From Oceanivirga miroungae (GTDB taxonomy: Bacteria > Fusobacteriota > Fusobacteriia > Fusobacteriales > Leptotrichiaceae): DNA of 64,000 bases. Under the pieces are notes generated by a model, which did not search any database, was not told the DNA's origin, and was given only the letters and a program-made list of their open reading frames with translations. The stretch lies in the NCBI RefSeq assembly GCF_902505095.1, contig NZ_CABWIB010000001.1, positions 570,688-634,687 on the forward strand, written 5' to 3'. The translations under genes were made by a program, and so were the position numbers. Positions 58,118 through 63,320 of this stretch are shown here, piece after piece (the first letter of the stretch is position 1; each line of letters opens with the position of its first letter).

Positions 58118-58327
58118 ATGAAAGCTAATTATAAAAAACTATGGCATATATTACTTGATAGAGATATGAAGAAGAAAGAGTTAGCAGAGCTTGCGGGGGT
58201 CAGCACATACACAATCAATAAGCTTAATAAAAATGAGAATGTCACTGTGGAAGTCCTTGGGAAGATTTGCAAGGCTTTGAATTGTACATTAGACGATATT
58301 ATGGAATTTGAAGAGGATGGTGAATAA
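58118..58327 (+). CDS. XRE-family HTH transcriptional regulator (possible controller of the downstream R-M locus)
   Basis: KKKELAELAGVSTYTINKLNKNENVTVEVLGKICKALNC is an HTH_XRE. ATG 58118 after GCGAGGA. Confidence 0.7.
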   Translation: MKANYKKLWHILLDRDMKKKELAELAGVSTYTINKLNKNENVTVEVLGKICKALNCTLDDIMEFEEDGE

Positions 58328-58330
58328 ATA

Positions 58331-59863
58331 ATGGCTAAAAAAAATAACGCAAATATAGGTTTTGAAAAGCAAATTTGGGATGCAGCTTGTGTTCTCTGGG
58401 GGCATATTCCTGCTGCTGAGTACAGAAAAGTAATTGTTGGACTTATTTTTCTTCGTTATATATCCAGTGCATTTGAAAAACGTTACGAAGAACTTTTAAA
58501 AGAAGGCGATGGTTTTGAGAATGATAGAGATGCATATGCAGAAGAAAACATTTTCTTTGTGCCGGAGGAGGCTCGTTGGAGTAAGATTTCGACTGCTGCA
58601 CATACACCTGAAATTGGTACAGTAATTGATGACGCCATGAGAGCGATTGAAAAAGAAAATACGAGTTTAAAAAATGTTTTACCTAAGAATTATGCAAGCC
58701 CAGATTTAGATAAAAGAGTACTTGGTGAAGTTGTTGATTTATTTACAAACGAAGTAAAAATGGATGGAACTGATGCAAGTAAAGATTTATTAGGTAGGAC
58801 ATATGAGTATTGTATTGCTCAGTTTGCTGCCTATGAAGGAACAAAGGGCGGTGAATTTTATACGCCTTCAAGTATTGTAAAAACAATTGTTGCCATATTG
58901 AAACCGTTCAATAATTGCCGAGTGTATGATCCATGTATGGGTAGTGGCGGTATGTTTGTACAAAGTGAAAAATTTGTACAGGCTCATAGCAACAATCGAG
59001 GGAATATTTCCGTTTATGGACAGGAATCCAATGCAGATACATGGAAGATGGCTAAAATGAATATGGCAATAAGAGGAATTGATGCGAATTTCGGCTCTTA
59101 TCATGCCGATACATTTTTTAATGACATCCATAAAACATTAAAGTCGGATTTCATTATGGCAAATCCACCCTTTAACCTTTCTAATTGGGGAGCGGATAAA
59201 TTAAAAGATGATGTAAGGTGGAAATATGGAATGCCACCATCAGGAAATGCAAACTATGCGTGGATACAGCATATGATACATCATTTGGCACCAAATGGTA
59301 AAATTGGCTTAGTGCTTGCGAATGGAGCCTTATCCTCTCAATCTTCCGGAGAAGGAGAAATCAGGAGAAAGATCATAGAAGATGATCTCGTTGAAGGGAT
59401 TGTAGCTTTGCCGACACAGCTATTTTATAGCGTTACCATTCCTGTAACCTTGTGGTTCATTACCAAAAATAAAAAACAAAAAGGAAAGACACTATTTATT
59501 GATGCCAGAAAAATGGGATATATGGTAGATAGAAAACATAGAGACTTTACAGAAGGTTTGCAAGAAGATGGAAGTCTTGGAGATATTGATTTATTAGCTA
59601 AGACCTTTGAAGATTTCCAAAACGGAATACTGGAAGAGAAAAAAGGATTTACGGCTATTGCTACCATAGAAGATATTGCAAAACAAGATTATATCTTAAC
59701 TCCGGGGAGATATGTGGGTATTGAAGAGCAGGAAGATGACGGAGAGCCGTTTGAAGAAAAGATGACAAGATTGACTTCGGAGCTTTCGGATATGTTTAAA
59801 AAGTCCCATGAATTAGAAGAGGAGATACGCAAGAAATTGGGGGCGATTGGATATGAAATCTGA
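58331..59863 (+). CDS. hsdM: Type I restriction-modification system methyltransferase subunit
   Basis: N6-adenine MTase motifs: SAM-binding DPCMGSGGMF, catalytic NPPF (MANPPFNLSNW). 510 aa. Confidence 0.9.
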   Translation: MAKKNNANIGFEKQIWDAACVLWGHIPAAEYRKVIVGLIFLRYISSAFEKRYEELLKEGDGFENDRDAYAEENIFFVPEEARWSKISTAAHTPEIGTVIDDAMRAIEKENTSLKNVLPKNYASPDLDKRVLGEVVDLFTNEVKMDGTDASKDLLGRTYEYCIAQFAAYEGTKGGEFYTPSSIVKTIVAILKPFNNCRVYDPCMGSGGMFVQSEKFVQAHSNNRGNISVYGQESNADTWKMAKMNMAIRGIDANFGSYHADTFFNDIHKTLKSDFIMANPPFNLSNWGADKLKDDVRWKYGMPPSGNANYAWIQHMIHHLAPNGKIGLVLANGALSSQSSGEGEIRRKIIEDDLVEGIVALPTQLFYSVTIPVTLWFITKNKKQKGKTLFIDARKMGYMVDRKHRDFTEGLQEDGSLGDIDLLAKTFEDFQNGILEEKKGFTAIATIEDIAKQDYILTPGRYVGIEEQEDDGEPFEEKMTRLTSELSDMFKKSHELEEEIRKKLGAIGYEI

Positions 59864-61071: not shown

Positions 61072-62055
61072 GTGAAACAGGATTTAATCAAAGATGTTGT
61101 TCAAGAAATGTTGCCATATTTGAACAATGCACAAAACGAAAAGCTACAAGAGGTTTTGCAATATACCCTTGTAAATTATGATGTAACAGAAAACAAACAA
61201 CAAGAGAAAATTTCGGAACAGAACTTTGTAGAATTGTTCTTATCGGCAAAACATATAGAGGGTTGCTCCGAAAAATCTCTTAAATACTATAAGGCTACTA
61301 TTAACACTATGCTTGATGAACTCAAAAAAGATGTCAAACACATAGTTACAGATGATATAAGAGGATATCTGACAGAATATCAGGAAAAGAAAAATTCAAG
61401 CAAAGTTACAATAGATAATATCCGCCGTATTTTATCAAGCTTCTTCTCTTGGTTAGAGGATGAGGACTACATACTAAAAAGTCCGGTACGACGTATACAT
61501 AAAGTAAAAACAGGTACAAATATAAAGGAAACATACTCTGATGAGGCATTAGAGCTTATGAGAGATAATTGTACAGAACTGAGAGATTTAGCAATAATAG
61601 ATATGCTTGCTTCAACCGGTATGCGTGTGGGCGAAATGGTACTATTAAACCGAAATGATATTGATTTTAACGAGAGAGAATGTATCGTGTTCGGTAAAGG
61701 GAGTAAAGAAAGAGTTGTATATTTTGATGCAAGAACAAAGATTCATTTGCAGAATTATCTTAACAGTAGAATAGATGATAATCCTGCATTATTTGTGTCG
61801 TTGAAATCTCCATACAAAAGATTGAAAATCGGCGGTATCGAAGTTCGTCTGCGTGAATTTGGGAAAAAGTTAGGATTGCAAAAGGTACATCCACATAAGT
61901 TCAGACGTACTCTTGCAACGATGGCAATAGATAAAGGAATGCCCATTGAGCAATTGCAGCAGCTTTTAGGGCATAGAAAGATAGATACGACATTGCAGTA
62001 TGCAATGGTAAAACAAAGTAATGTGAAAATTGCGCATAGAAAATATATTGGATAG
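61072..62055 (+). CDS. tyrosine site-specific recombinase (phage-integrase family) embedded in the hsdS shufflon
   Basis: Catalytic R...HxxR...Y: ...GMRVGEM..., HPHKFRRTLATMAIDKG, LGHRKIDTTLQYAM. GTG start after AAGGAGGA. Confidence 0.85.
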   Translation: MKQDLIKDVVQEMLPYLNNAQNEKLQEVLQYTLVNYDVTENKQQEKISEQNFVELFLSAKHIEGCSEKSLKYYKATINTMLDELKKDVKHIVTDDIRGYLTEYQEKKNSSKVTIDNIRRILSSFFSWLEDEDYILKSPVRRIHKVKTGTNIKETYSDEALELMRDNCTELRDLAIIDMLASTGMRVGEMVLLNRNDIDFNERECIVFGKGSKERVVYFDARTKIHLQNYLNSRIDDNPALFVSLKSPYKRLKIGGIEVRLREFGKKLGLQKVHPHKFRRTLATMAIDKGMPIEQLQQLLGHRKIDTTLQYAMVKQSNVKIAHRKYIG

Positions 62056-62063
62056 AGAGGAAA

Positions 62064-63320
62064 ATGGATATGGCTGAACAATTCACAACATTAAGTGCGC
62101 TAACGATAGACGGAAAAGGTTCATATGGAATTGGTGCAAGAGCAGTTCCTTTCTCGAAAGATTTATACACCTATTTGAGAATTACGGATATTAAAGACGA
62201 TGGAACACTAAATCTACAGGATTTGAAATCGGTTGATGATGAGAAAGCTTCGGAATATCTTTTAAAACCGAATGATATTGTGTTTGCAAGAACGGGAGCA
62301 AGCACTGGAAGAAATTATTTTTATGATGGAACGGATGGAGAATTTGTATATGCAGGATTTCTCATTAAGTTCAGCATTGATGAGAAAAAAGTAAATCCCA
62401 AATACATAAAGTATTTTTGTCAGTCTAAACAGTATAAGGACTGGATTAACTCGTTTAATACAGGTAGCACTCGCGGAAACATAAATGCTCAAACGCTTGG
62501 CAAAATGCCAATTCCTCTTATTGAACGAAAGATACAGGATATTTTAGTAAGTGTTCTTTCGAGTATAGATGAAAAAATCAAAAAGAATAATGAGATAAAC
62601 AATAATTTAGAGCAACAAGCTTCGGCATTATTTAAGTCTTGGTTTGTTGACTTTGAACCTTTTGGATATGCTATGCCTTCCAATTGGGAAGTAGCTACAT
62701 TAGATACTATAGCTGATTTTCAAAACGGATATGCATTCAAGAGTAAAGACCTACTTAGTAAACCAGCACCAAACACATATAAAGTATTCAAACAAGGTCA
62801 TATTAGTCGTGGCGGTGGCTTCATTTCTGATGGCACAAAGAGTTGGTATCCTAAATCATCAGCAACATCTTTGGGCAAATTTATACTTCGCAAAGGTGAT
62901 ATTCTAATGGCTATGACTGATATGAAAGATAATGTTGCTATTTTGGGAAACACAGCTATTATGCCTGTTGACAATGAATATATTGTTAATCAGCGTGTAG
63001 GACATTTGAGAGCAAATAACTACAAAGGAATTACTTATCCATATATTTACCTGCTTACAAATAACAAAAATTTCTTAACTGATTTGCGTAGCAGAGCTAA
63101 TAGCGGTGTTCAGGTAAACCTTTCTTCTGCTGAAATAAAATTATCCGAAATAGTAATAGCTACAGAGAAGATTAACAAGGCGTTCTCAGATATTGTAATG
63201 CCTATGTGTGAACGAATAATTCAAAATCAACTTGAAAATCAACGCTTAGCAGTATTACGAGACACACTTATTCCTAAACTAATGTCCGGTGAGCTTGATG
63301 TCTCTAACATCGACCTCTAA
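62064..63320 (+). CDS. hsdS: Type I R-M specificity subunit, full-length (TRD-central repeat-TRD-C-terminal repeat)
   Basis: 418 aa. Central ...KKNNEINNNLEQQASALFKSWF and C-terminal ...RLAVLRDTLIPKLMSGELDVSNIDL conserved regions flank two TRDs. Confidence 0.85.
   Translation: MDMAEQFTTLSALTIDGKGSYGIGARAVPFSKDLYTYLRITDIKDDGTLNLQDLKSVDDEKASEYLLKPNDIVFARTGASTGRNYFYDGTDGEFVYAGFLIKFSIDEKKVNPKYIKYFCQSKQYKDWINSFNTGSTRGNINAQTLGKMPIPLIERKIQDILVSVLSSIDEKIKKNNEINNNLEQQASALFKSWFVDFEPFGYAMPSNWEVATLDTIADFQNGYAFKSKDLLSKPAPNTYKVFKQGHISRGGGFISDGTKSWYPKSSATSLGKFILRKGDILMAMTDMKDNVAILGNTAIMPVDNEYIVNQRVGHLRANNYKGITYPYIYLLTNNKNFLTDLRSRANSGVQVNLSSAEIKLSEIVIATEKINKAFSDIVMPMCERIIQNQLENQRLAVLRDTLIPKLMSGELDVSNIDL

What the first reader, a model, noticed from the sequence alone, without database searches (positions are those of the whole stretch)
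58118..63320. Phase-variable Type I R-M shufflon: hsdM + half hsdS + inverted silent hsdS cassette + embedded tyrosine recombinase + full hsdS
The expressed hsdS (59853-60389) is only half length and stops right after the central conserved repeat. A 24-nt perfect inverted copy of that repeat (AACAATAATTTAGAGCAACAAGCT at 62597-62620; reverse complement at 60957-60980) and ~85%-identical inverted copies of the HsdS C-terminal helix region (60386-60444 vs 63262-63320) flank an oppositely oriented TRD cassette and a tyrosine recombinase gene. Inversion between the central repeats would fuse TRD1 to the currently silent TRD plus C-terminus, generating a full-length HsdS with new specificity. Inversion between the C-terminal repeats would flip the recombinase and the downstream hsdS. 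No hsdR is present in the window.
Basis: partly seen in the sequence, partly recalled or inferred. Interest (0 to 1): 0.65.

Follow-up and report, generated by a model that had tools for sequence, protein, structure and literature searches.

The report
Invertible restriction-enzyme specificity gene switch
This is a horizontally acquired Type I restriction-modification locus in which an embedded recombinase can flip and swap half-gene cassettes at four copies of a 16-base site, changing which DNA motif the enzyme recognises; it belongs to a kind that has been catalogued, but whose layout is poorly described.

Summary
Window 58118-63340 holds an HTH regulator, hsdM, a 178-aa half hsdS, an inverted TRD2+C-terminus cassette, an intact tyrosine recombinase and a full hsdS. 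The source is Oceanivirga miroungae (Fusobacteriota). One 15-16-nt core (ATAAACAATAATTTAG) occurs four times in + - + - order and nowhere else in 64 kb. Each TRD2 cassette is bracketed by an inverted pair of cores, and the second core of each pair sits 4 nt after the cassette's stop codon. Flipping a cassette therefore toggles its upstream TRD1 between a full HsdS and a cleanly terminated half HsdS (NNNL+2 aa).

The same four-site layout recurs in about 45 related loci across phyla. In relatives, breakpoints fall exactly on the core:
- Veillonella: a 2,947-bp s1xs4 inversion.
- Massiliimalia-related pair: an s1xs2 cassette flip.
- [Clostridium] symbiosum: all six predicted products exist in public assemblies.

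hsdR is not in the window; in relatives it follows the last core or an FRG gene. No population data exist for this strain, so activity here is inferred. The two cassettes are almost always in opposite orientation (33 of 36 loci), which is unexplained. Verdict: a new member of a known kind (Huang 2020 "clade-2"/TvrR-type hsdS invertons).

The parts
58118..58327 (+). HTH_26 (Cro/C1-type) regulator immediately upstream of hsdM. The ORF runs 58088-58327 from TTG; the ATG is at 58118.
   Evidence: Pfam HTH_26 E 2e-20. An HTH gene sits in the same position in most related loci.
58331..59863 (+). hsdM, the Type I methyltransferase subunit.
   Evidence: HsdM_N plus N6_Mtase, E 3e-103. It is 97% aa identical to the [Eubacterium] yurii locus L001.
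59853..60389 (+). Half-length hsdS-A: TRD1A plus about 70% of the central helix, ending NNNL-VA-stop. It overlaps the end of hsdM by 11 nt.
   Evidence: Methylase_S E 7e-18. It is 100% identical over 99% of the query to an annotated 178-aa O. miroungae protein.
60366..60381 (+). Core site s1 (ATAAACAATAATTTAG) at the end of TRD1A.
   Evidence: Exact match. It is followed by TGGC and the palindromic TTAA, which supplies the stop codon on both strands.
60386..60979 (-). Silent cassette 2': NNNL-EQQAQAIF central helix, TRD2', C-terminal helix (..LLPKLMSGELDISNIDL) and stop. It is invertible between s1 and s2.
   Evidence: The frame is open for 197 aa from the s2 core. It is 89% aa identical to a cassette in L022 and 77% to one in L001, where it forms the 3' half of a full hsdS. 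It has no Pfam hit of its own.
60967..60982 (-). Core site s2 (15 of 16 matches).
   Evidence: With its flank it forms the 38-nt, 87% inverted repeat with s3.
60983..61071 (+). Structured leader upstream of the recombinase gene (two hairpins and the RBS).
   Evidence: Folding and alignment of 13 loci; stem 1 keeps pairing through compensatory changes at three pairs.
61072..62055 (+). Tyrosine recombinase (XerA/XerC-like) with its catalytic residues intact.
   Evidence: Phage_integrase E 1e-30. NCBIfam NF040815 scores 243.7 bits against a cut-off of 220. The alignment to P. abyssi XerA (4A8E) conserves R, K, HxxR, H and Y. More than 570 relatives were found in GTDB genomes.
62064..63320 (+). 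Full-length hsdS-B (TRD1B, central helix, TRD2B, C-terminal helix), starting 8 nt after the recombinase stop.
   Evidence: Methylase_S E 6e-23. It equals WP_197271481.1.
62595..62610 (+). Core site s3 in the central helix of hsdS-B.
   Evidence: Exact match.
63325..63340 (-). Core site s4, which is non-coding and lies 4 nt after the hsdS-B stop codon.
   Evidence: Exact match. It mirrors the s1 junction.
63362..64000 (+). FRG-domain gene that runs off the window and carries an in-frame TAG at 63647-63649. In relatives this gene lies between the last core and hsdR.
   Evidence: Pfam FRG. The order hsdS-FRG-hsdR is seen in Pyramidobacter L093 and in L005.
55947..57961 (+). IS21-family element (istA intact, istB split) that abuts the left edge of the GC-rich R-M island.
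   Evidence: ORFs and the rve domain. GC steps from about 24% to 32-38% at about 58000.

Best explanation
The locus is a horizontally acquired Type I R-M module whose specificity genes are rearranged by the embedded tyrosine recombinase, acting at four copies of a 15-16-bp core arranged + - + -.

Two fixed TRD1 'heads' share two mobile cassettes. Head A is translationally coupled to hsdM. Head B sits 8 nt after the recombinase gene. Each cassette carries the distal central helix, a TRD2, the C-terminal helix, a stop codon and a 4-nt spacer. Each cassette lies between an inverted pair of cores. In one orientation it completes the upstream head into a full HsdS. In the other, the head reads the core (NNNL), two more codons and a stop, giving a clean half HsdS.

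Recombination between s1/s2 or s3/s4 flips one cassette. Recombination between s1/s4 or s2/s3 inverts the recombinase segment and reassigns cassettes. The repertoire is four bipartite specificities (A+2', A+2B, B+2', B+2B) plus two half-length forms. The sequenced state is A-half plus B+2B.

Shown: the anatomy, the conservation of the layout, and breakpoints on the core in relatives. Inferred: that this strain still switches, that hsdS-B is expressed, and that the half HsdS is active as a dimer.
For: - Four cores occur only at the locus, and the two core/C-terminus junctions mirror each other.
- The + - [rec] + - layout, with a 6-aa N(N/D/K/E)NL-xx-stop tail, recurs in about 45 loci from Bacillota (including Negativicutes), Synergistota and others.
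- Clean rearrangements bounded by the core are seen in relatives. L054 vs L059 have the s1-s2 cassette inverted at 99.77% identity, with flanks at 97-99.9%. Veillonella L087 vs L088 have the 2,947-bp s1-s4 segment inverted at 99.97%, with 15-nt overlaps at both ends. C. symbiosum L081-L086 show five arrangements of the same two cassettes in identical flanks, with junctions swapped exactly at AACAAGAATTTAG.
- I predicted the C. symbiosum recombinant A+Y in silico and then found it as an exact 376-aa protein. All six predicted products exist: A+X on 109 contigs, A+Y 38, B+X 54, B+Y 48, A-half 152, B-half 215.
- 16 of 80 recombinase contigs are shorter than 3.5 kb, and at least 7 end within 0-1 nt of a core at both ends.
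- The recombinase has its catalytic residues.
- Engineered half HsdS proteins are active and recognise a palindromic target (PMC6158711). NgoAV switches between full and truncated HsdS with different specificities (cited in PMC7394358).
Against: - There is only one O. miroungae assembly. None of the three alternative full-length products predicted for this genome is in the 15-billion-protein collection, so switching in this strain is unobserved.
- s2 has one mismatch at its outer base.
- The window lacks about 11 nt of the conserved leader upstream of the recombinase gene.
- hsdR was not seen.
- In the pneumococcal tvr locus only the hsdS upstream of the recombinase drove methylation (PMC6265443). 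Huang 2020 reads truncated HsdS as OFF (PMC7672463).
- Cassette 2' has no Pfam hit of its own.
Confidence: 0.75

Rival explanations
1. The main pathway is excision and reintegration of a circle carrying the recombinase plus one cassette, through directly oriented cores (s1xs3 or s2xs4), as shown for TvrR at the pneumococcal tvr locus. On this view simple inversion is secondary.
For: s1/s3 and s2/s4 are direct repeats of the same core. C. symbiosum L081 (X rev, Y fwd) and L085 (Y fwd, X rev) differ by a swap of cassettes without inversion. That swap needs one excision (s1xs3) plus one reintegration (s2xs4), but four inversions. The tvr repeats likewise share a core between the midpoint and tail-end repeats (PMC6265443). 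Huang 2020 suggests that clade-2 enzymes may do both.
Against: Clean single inversions are seen. The cores here are in inverted pairs, unlike tvr, where all repeats are direct. No circular form or recombinase-less collapsed locus was looked for or seen. The two pathways are not mutually exclusive.
Confidence: 0.25
2. The half-length state is simply OFF. A half HsdS is inactive, so the switch is an ON/OFF toggle for each head rather than a generator of extra palindromic specificities.
For: Huang 2020 interprets clade-2 arrangements as yielding truncated HsdS and ON/OFF switching. The half protein lacks the last 12 or so residues of the central helix. A truncated tvr TRD gave an inactive system.
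Against: Engineered half HsdS proteins dimerise and methylate ACCN5GGT (PMC6158711). The in-frame stop two codons after the core is conserved in nearly all loci. 72 of the 120 best database relatives of TRD1A are 177-179-aa half forms.
Confidence: 0.4
3. The locus is a frozen relic in this strain: acquired by horizontal transfer and no longer switching.
For: The island is flanked by a decayed IS21, and the adjacent FRG gene has a nonsense codon. Only one arrangement is on record. The leader upstream of the recombinase gene carries a deletion.
Against: The recombinase ORF and its catalytic residues are intact. Three cores are perfect and one matches 15 of 16. Both cassettes and both heads are open reading frames.
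Confidence: 0.15
4. The repeats are only conserved coding sequence of the HsdS helices, with no programmed recombination.
For: s1, s2 and s3 lie in the conserved NNNL motif of the central helix, and the C-terminal repeats encode a conserved helix.
Against: s4 and the s1-side junction are non-coding in the forward cassette orientation yet are conserved to the base. Rearrangement breakpoints in relatives map exactly to the core. Contigs break on it.
Confidence: 0.03

Closest known systems
Clade-2 (TvrR-type) hsdS 'epigenetic invertons' catalogued by Huang et al. 2020 (NAR 48:11468, PMC7672463)
   Same: These are Type I loci with two or more hsdS genes in mixed orientation and an embedded tyrosine recombinase. 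Inversions 'would mostly yield truncated HsdS'. The clade has the widest phylum range, and in the REBASE set it is the only clade found in Fusobacteria (3 loci; 7 of the 8 Fusobacteria loci in the NCBI set).
   Different: That paper gives only a summary sentence and a supplementary figure. The four-core layout, the core placed 4 nt after each stop codon, the two-heads/two-cassettes logic and the opposite-orientation rule are not described in the text I could read. I could not test sequence membership of this recombinase in clade 2.
Streptococcus pneumoniae tvr locus / SpnIV (Kwun et al. 2018, PMC6265443)
   Same: The order is hsdM ... hsdS parts ... recombinase ... hsdS parts ... hsdR. Midpoint and tail-end repeats share one short core. 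'2+2' arrangements with a complete hsdS on both sides of the recombinase occur. An attenuator lies upstream of the recombinase gene.
   Different: In tvr all repeats are direct and shuffling goes through excised circles. Here the cores are in inverted pairs and clean inversions are seen in relatives. There are no tvrAT (phd-doc) genes next to the recombinase here.
S. pneumoniae SpnD39III / ivr (cod) locus with CreX/PsrA (Manso 2014, PMC4190663)
   Same: Specificity switches by site-specific inversion between an expressed hsdS and silent hsdS parts, using repeats inside the coding sequence.
   Different: In the ivr locus one expression site always yields a full-length HsdS, and there are three different repeat types. 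Here a single core occurs at four places, there are two expression heads, and half-length products are regular outcomes.
NgoAV of Neisseria gonorrhoeae (cited in PMC7394358) and engineered half HsdS (Bower 2018, PMC6158711)
   Same: These show switching between full-length and truncated HsdS, and that a truncated HsdS can be active as a dimer on a symmetric target.
   Different: The NgoAV switch is slippage in a poly-G tract, not recombination. The engineered halves are laboratory constructs.
L. rhamnosus BREX pglX inverton (Milman 2023, PMC9881135)
   Same: A nested multi-inversion locus in which one-inversion intermediates are strongly under-represented (5 of 176 reads). This parallels the rarity of same-orientation cassette states here.
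   Different: It is a different defence system and target gene. The bias there was measured within one culture, whereas here it is measured across genomes.

Membership tests
Type I restriction-modification system | HsdM methyltransferase subunit | tested here: met
   HsdM_N plus N6_Mtase, E 3e-103.
Type I restriction-modification system | HsdS specificity subunit with two TRDs and two conserved helices | tested here: met
   hsdS-B is 418 aa with two Methylase_S stretches. hsdS-A is a single-TRD half.
Type I restriction-modification system | HsdR restriction/translocase subunit | tested here: inconclusive
   It is absent from the 64-kb window. In 30 of 36 related loci hsdR lies downstream on the same strand, directly or after an FRG gene. 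The window ends inside the FRG gene.
hsdS inverton (Huang 2020 definition) | At least two hsdS genes plus a recombinase gene in the locus | tested here: met
hsdS inverton (Huang 2020 definition) | hsdS sequence flanked by inverted repeats | tested here: met
   The four cores give inverted pairs s1/s2, s3/s4, s1/s4 and s2/s3.
hsdS inverton (Huang 2020 definition) | Inversion actually occurs | not testable with these tools
   No reads exist for O. miroungae. It is met in relatives: L054/L059, L087/L088 and C. symbiosum L081-L086, and all six predicted products are found.
TvrR / clade-2 recombinase loci | Recombinase groups with TvrR by sequence | not tested
   No TvrR sequence was available in the tools. 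The support is indirect only: in Huang's REBASE set the Fusobacteria loci are clade 2 only.
TvrR / clade-2 recombinase loci | Midpoint and tail-end repeats share one short core | tested here: met
   The same 16-mer sits in the central helix and 4 nt after each stop codon. Compare the 11-bp core of the tvr MPR and TER repeats.
TvrR / clade-2 recombinase loci | All repeats in direct orientation; shuffling via excised circles | tested here: not met
   The cores alternate + - + -. Circles are not testable here.
TvrR / clade-2 recombinase loci | tvrAT (phd-doc) toxin-antitoxin genes beside the recombinase gene | tested here: not met
   No gene lies between s2 and the recombinase gene. Two Fic/Doc-family genes lie 2.4 kb upstream of the module, beyond the IS21, in native low-GC DNA.
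Tyrosine recombinase | R-K-HxxR-H-Y catalytic residues | tested here: met
   The alignment to XerA (4A8E) shows gmRvge, gkgsKeR, HkfR, lgH and lqY.

The most novel reading that the evidence does not exclude
The module is a designed 'two heads, two cassettes' switch in which exactly one head is full-length at a time and the other makes an active half HsdS. Each cell would then carry one bipartite and one palindromic specificity, drawn from a six-member repertoire. The near-absence of same-orientation states (3 of 36 genomes; 3 of 48 C. symbiosum contigs) would reflect an active mechanism rather than sampling. Candidate mechanisms are orientation-dependent recombinase expression through the conserved leader, concerted double events via excision and reintegration, or rapid loss of states in which the long repeats become direct.
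Probability: 0.3. Interest if true: 0.6.

Novelty: new member of a known kind. Interest (0 to 1): 0.4.

Why it matters
Phase-variable Type I systems change both phage or plasmid restriction and the methylome of a clone. This locus is one instance of a highly mobile module: the recombinase is 70-94% identical in the best 80 of more than 570 related hits in GTDB species-representative genomes. The module is shared by oral, gut and animal-associated bacteria of several phyla. Its rule set has not been spelled out in the papers I could read: one core, four sites, two heads, two cassettes and clean half-length products.

If the half HsdS proteins are active, each such locus encodes six specificities rather than four. 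The strong preference for one full plus one half form would then be a regulatory feature worth testing. For O. miroungae itself the finding is ordinary: a foreign R-M island next to an IS21 element.

Tried and rejected
- Exact-protein look-ups of the window's hsdM, GuaA, the recombinase and the annotated half hsdS found no contig in the assembly collection. I therefore could not read past 64 kb or compare strains of this species.
- Megablast of the locus against the plasmid collection found nothing.
- The promoter/terminator consensus scan gave fewer hits than shuffles and was uninformative.
- Rfam gave no credible family for the leader or elsewhere.
- Supplementary files of Huang 2020 (Figure S1, locus tables) are not held, so I could not check whether this exact layout is drawn there.
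- Literature searches for 'TvrR' and for C. symbiosum hsdS inversion added nothing beyond the papers cited.
- I considered that the cassette-orientation rule follows from recombination only between like-flanked sites (s1xs4, s2xs3). I rejected this as sufficient, because closely related loci differ by single-cassette flips and recombinase-inverted states are rare.
- I looked for recombinase-less 'collapsed' loci through two full-length HsdS homologues (Veillonella, Pyramidobacter). Both turned out to be intact four-site modules.
- I did not use the metagenome scan, structure prediction or the representative-protein search, as they would not have settled the open points.

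
Full report
**What is there**

- an HTH_26 regulator (58118-58327);
- hsdM (58331-59863);
- a 178-aa single-TRD hsdS (59853-60389) that overlaps the hsdM stop by 11 nt;
- a minus-strand ORF (60386-61045) that begins with the HsdS central-helix motif and ends with the C-terminal helix;
- a tyrosine recombinase (61072-62055);
- 8 nt later, a complete 418-aa hsdS (62064-63320).

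The half hsdS is 100% identical over 99% of the query to a 178-aa protein that NCBI annotates as 'restriction endonuclease subunit S [Oceanivirga miroungae]'. The full hsdS equals WP_197271481.1. The window therefore comes from O. miroungae (Leptotrichiaceae, Fusobacteriota). The rest of the window is ordinary chromosome (IF-2, Lon, SecA, LigA, GuaA) and contains no HsdR.

**Checking the repeats**

The 24-nt perfect inverted repeat is real but shifted by one base: 62598-62621 and 60956-60979. The C-terminal inverted copies are 48/59 identical, which is 81%.

It found a 149-nt inverted similarity, 60366-60514 vs 63192-63340. It also found a 16-mer, ATAAACAATAATTTAG, at four places:
- s1, 60366-60381 (+);
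- s2, 60967-60982 (-, 15 of 16 matches);
- s3, 62595-62610 (+);
- s4, 63325-63340 (-).

At 0-1 mismatch there is no other copy in 64 kb, and none of 100 shuffles reached the observed number of hits.

Reading the sequence shows the layout. s1 and s3 encode the NNNL of the central helix of the two TRD1 'heads'. s2 is the same motif at the start of the silent cassette. s4 is non-coding and lies 4 nt after the hsdS-B stop. The s1 junction (core-TGGC-TTAA-reverse complement of the C-terminus) mirrors the s4 junction (C-terminus-TAA-GCCG-reverse complement of the core). The half hsdS stops because it reads from the core into the tail of the inverted cassette. The palindromic TTAA serves as the stop codon on both strands.

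**The logic that follows**

Each TRD2+C-terminus cassette (60382-60966 and 62611-63324) is bracketed by an inverted pair of cores.
- Flipping cassette 2' between s1 and s2 would give a 369-aa TRD1A+TRD2' protein.
- Flipping cassette 2B between s3 and s4 would truncate hsdS-B to TRD1B-NNNLAA.
- s1xs4 inverts everything between them.
- s2xs3 inverts the recombinase plus TRD1B.

This corrects one detail in the finding. The 24-nt pair it cites (s2/s3) would join TRD1B, not the hsdM-proximal TRD1, to the silent cassette.

**Relatives**

A scan of one genome per GTDB species with the recombinase found more than 570 relatives. The best 80 are 70-94% identical. Most are Bacillota, with a few contigs binned to other phyla.

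The + - [rec] + - arrangement of the core recurs in about 45 of them, with the same spacings. The core varies slightly between lineages (AACAAT/AACGAT/AACAAG-AATTTAG). Reading in frame from every core gives one of two outcomes. Either a 190-290-aa open frame ends in ..MSGELDVS.., or a 6-aa tail N(N/D/K/E)NL-xx is followed by a stop.

In 30 of 36 fully resolved loci, hsdM is upstream and a 1015-1079-aa ORF is downstream on the same strand. That ORF carries HSDR_N, SWI2_SNF2 and T1RH-like_C domains. Several loci have an FRG-domain gene between the last core and hsdR (L005 and others; Pyramidobacter porci L093). Pyramidobacter shows the window's exact order: hsdM, half hsdS, inverted cassette, recombinase, full hsdS, FRG, hsdR. 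The window's FRG gene starts at 63362, so hsdR probably begins near 64.6 kb. This is an inference.

**Evidence that the core is a recombination site**

1. L054 (Massiliimalia massiliensis) and L059 (an Oscillospiraceae MAG) are 97-99.9% identical in the flanks and in the recombinase segment. The s1-s2 cassette is inverted between them at 99.77% identity, with the breakpoints on the core.

2. Two Veillonella contigs, L087 and L088, are 99.97% identical. They differ by inversion of the 2,947-bp s1-s4 segment, with 15-nt overlaps at both ends.

3. In [Clostridium] symbiosum, contigs with identical flanks carry the same two cassettes X and Y in five arrangements:
   - X rev / Y fwd (L081, and the complete genome AP025571 = L084);
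   - X fwd / Y rev (L086 and 23 similar places);
   - Y fwd / X rev (L085);
   - Y rev / X rev (L082);
   - Y rev / Y rev (L083).

   The four constant left flanks are joined to different cassette ends exactly at AACAAGAATTTAG.

4. I built the predicted recombinant TRD1A+Y in silico from L081, which does not encode it. An exact 376-aa match turned up in a metagenome, in the expected context. An exact look-up then found all six predicted products: A+X on 109 contigs, A+Y 38, B+X 54, B+Y 48, A-half 152 and B-half 215. A+X and B-half carry protein accessions BDF27528.1 and BDF27530.1, and for each the longest carrying contig is 5,384,495 bp. This suggests a second complete C. symbiosum genome in a different state from AP025571.

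5. Sixteen of the 80 recombinase contigs are shorter than 3.5 kb. At least seven end within 0-1 nt of a core at both ends, (-) on the left and (+) on the right. This is what an assembler produces when the junctions are heterogeneous.

For O. miroungae only the reference state is on record.

**The recombinase and its leader**

The enzyme scores above the NCBIfam XerA-type cut-off (243.7 bits vs 220). It aligns to P. abyssi XerA (4A8E) with R, K, HxxR, H and Y conserved.

The 89 nt between s2 and its start codon form two hairpins. Stem 1 keeps pairing through compensatory changes at three pairs in 13 loci. Most relatives also pair GTTCTCT with the RBS, but the window lacks about 11 nt of that segment. 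An attenuator upstream of tvrR is known (PMC6265443). I did not pursue this further.

**An unexplained regularity**

Relative to the recombinase, the two cassettes are in opposite orientation in 33 of 36 resolved loci: 18 rev/fwd like the window and 15 fwd/rev. Only 3 share an orientation (1 fwd/fwd, 2 rev/rev). If the two orientations were independent and equally likely, 3 or fewer concordant loci out of 36 has a two-sided binomial P of about 2e-7 (my calculation).

In C. symbiosum all 24 contigs read for A+X also carry B-half. Of the 24 contigs read for A-half, 21 carry a full-length B and 3 are rev/rev. The recombinase segment is inverted relative to hsdM and hsdR in only a few loci (L006, L074, Veillonella L088).

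Single-cassette flips clearly happen, so the states with two full or two half genes must be short-lived, selected against or lost. Possible causes are:
- in those states the long central and C-terminal repeats become direct, so recombination would delete the recombinase gene, and such loci drop out of a recombinase-anchored sample;
- selection for a single full-length S;
- orientation-dependent recombinase expression, as Milman et al. proposed for the under-represented one-inversion variants of a BREX pglX inverton (PMC9881135);
- excision and reintegration through direct cores, which converts X rev/Y fwd into Y fwd/X rev in one cycle.

I could not discriminate among these.

**Function of the half HsdS**

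This was not testable here.

In favour of activity:
- engineered half HsdS proteins dimerise and methylate a palindromic bipartite site (PMC6158711);
- NgoAV switches between full and truncated HsdS with different specificities (PMC7394358);
- the stop two codons after the core is conserved across loci;
- 72 of the 120 best database relatives of TRD1A are 177-179 aa.

Against activity:
- Huang et al. read such products as OFF;
- in tvr 2+2 arrangements only the upstream hsdS drove methylation.

**Comparison with what is known**

Huang et al. 2020 catalogued 139 REBASE loci with 'clade-2' (TvrR-type) recombinases. Their hsdS genes are 'arranged in peculiar manners', and inversions 'would mostly yield truncated HsdS'. 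In that REBASE set this is the only clade found in Fusobacteria.

The tvr locus shares the gene order and a core common to its midpoint and tail-end repeats. However, all its repeats are direct, and it shuffles through circles. This locus fits the catalogued kind by architecture. I could not test whether the recombinase groups with TvrR by sequence. It fails two tvr-specific features: direct repeats and adjacent tvrAT genes.

**Origin**

GC content steps from about 24% to 32-38% at 58.0 kb and stays high to about 63.4 kb. The step is exactly at the right end of an IS21 element. The HTH-hsdM stretch (58118-59856) is 88% identical at the nucleotide level to [Eubacterium] yurii. The module is therefore foreign to this genome.

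**Verdict**

It is a new member of a known kind. The value added here is the explicit four-core, two-head, two-cassette rule set, its validation in relatives, and the opposite-orientation regularity. Activity in this strain remains to be shown.

Noticed in passing
window 60983-61071; alignment A1 of 13 loci: A conserved structured leader lies between core s2 and the recombinase start codon. Hairpin 1 (61023-61041) keeps pairing through compensatory changes at three pairs. Most relatives also pair GTTCTCT with the RBS, but the window lacks about 11 nt of that segment. It may be an attenuator like the one upstream of tvrR.
   Followed up: partly
L001-L080 (rec-oriented) and C. symbiosum L081-L086: The two cassettes are in opposite orientation in 33 of 36 resolved loci. 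Same-orientation states are rare (1 fwd/fwd, 2 rev/rev). In C. symbiosum, 0 of 48 contigs are fwd/fwd and 3 of 48 are rev/rev. The cause is unknown.
   Followed up: partly
window 63362-64000: The FRG-domain gene downstream of the last core has an in-frame TAG at 63647-63649 (expected QHYG, found *HYG). It is probably a pseudogene. Intact 411-aa homologues sit between hsdS and hsdR in relatives.
   Followed up: partly
window 55947-57961: This IS21-family element has an intact istA, but istB is split into two overlapping ORFs (57190-57618 and 57599-57961). Its right end coincides with the GC step into the R-M island.
   Followed up: no
window 58000-63400: GC is 35.4% in the R-M module against 25.3% in the first 54 kb. 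The HTH-hsdM stretch (58118-59856) is 88% nt identical to [Eubacterium] yurii and 86% to a Lachnoanaerobaculum MAG. This points to recent transfer between phyla.
   Followed up: partly
window 52207-53748; L087-L092; L093: The module lies a few kb downstream of guaA in the window and directly after guaA in Veillonella. In Pyramidobacter porci it lies after an IMPDH-domain (guaB-like) gene. This may be a preferred insertion neighbourhood or a coincidence.
   Followed up: no
window 54187-55583: Two Fic/Doc-family genes lie upstream of the IS21 in native low-GC DNA. They are worth noting because the tvr locus is regulated by a Phd-Doc pair, but nothing links them to this module.
   Followed up: no
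L052 vs L068; L057; L058: The same TRD2 cassette (94-99% nt identity) occurs in loci whose recombinase and hsdR are only about 80% identical. Cassettes therefore move between diverged modules.
   Followed up: no
L083 (C. symbiosum metagenome contig): Both cassette positions hold the same cassette Y and cassette X is absent. This is either gene conversion or loss, or an assembly chimera of a mixed population.
   Followed up: no
L004, L019; proteins P0005, P0008: A variant junction lets the truncated reading continue for 24-53 aa (ending ..AEQFSSLLAA) instead of 2 aa. This second type of cassette tail was not examined.
   Followed up: no
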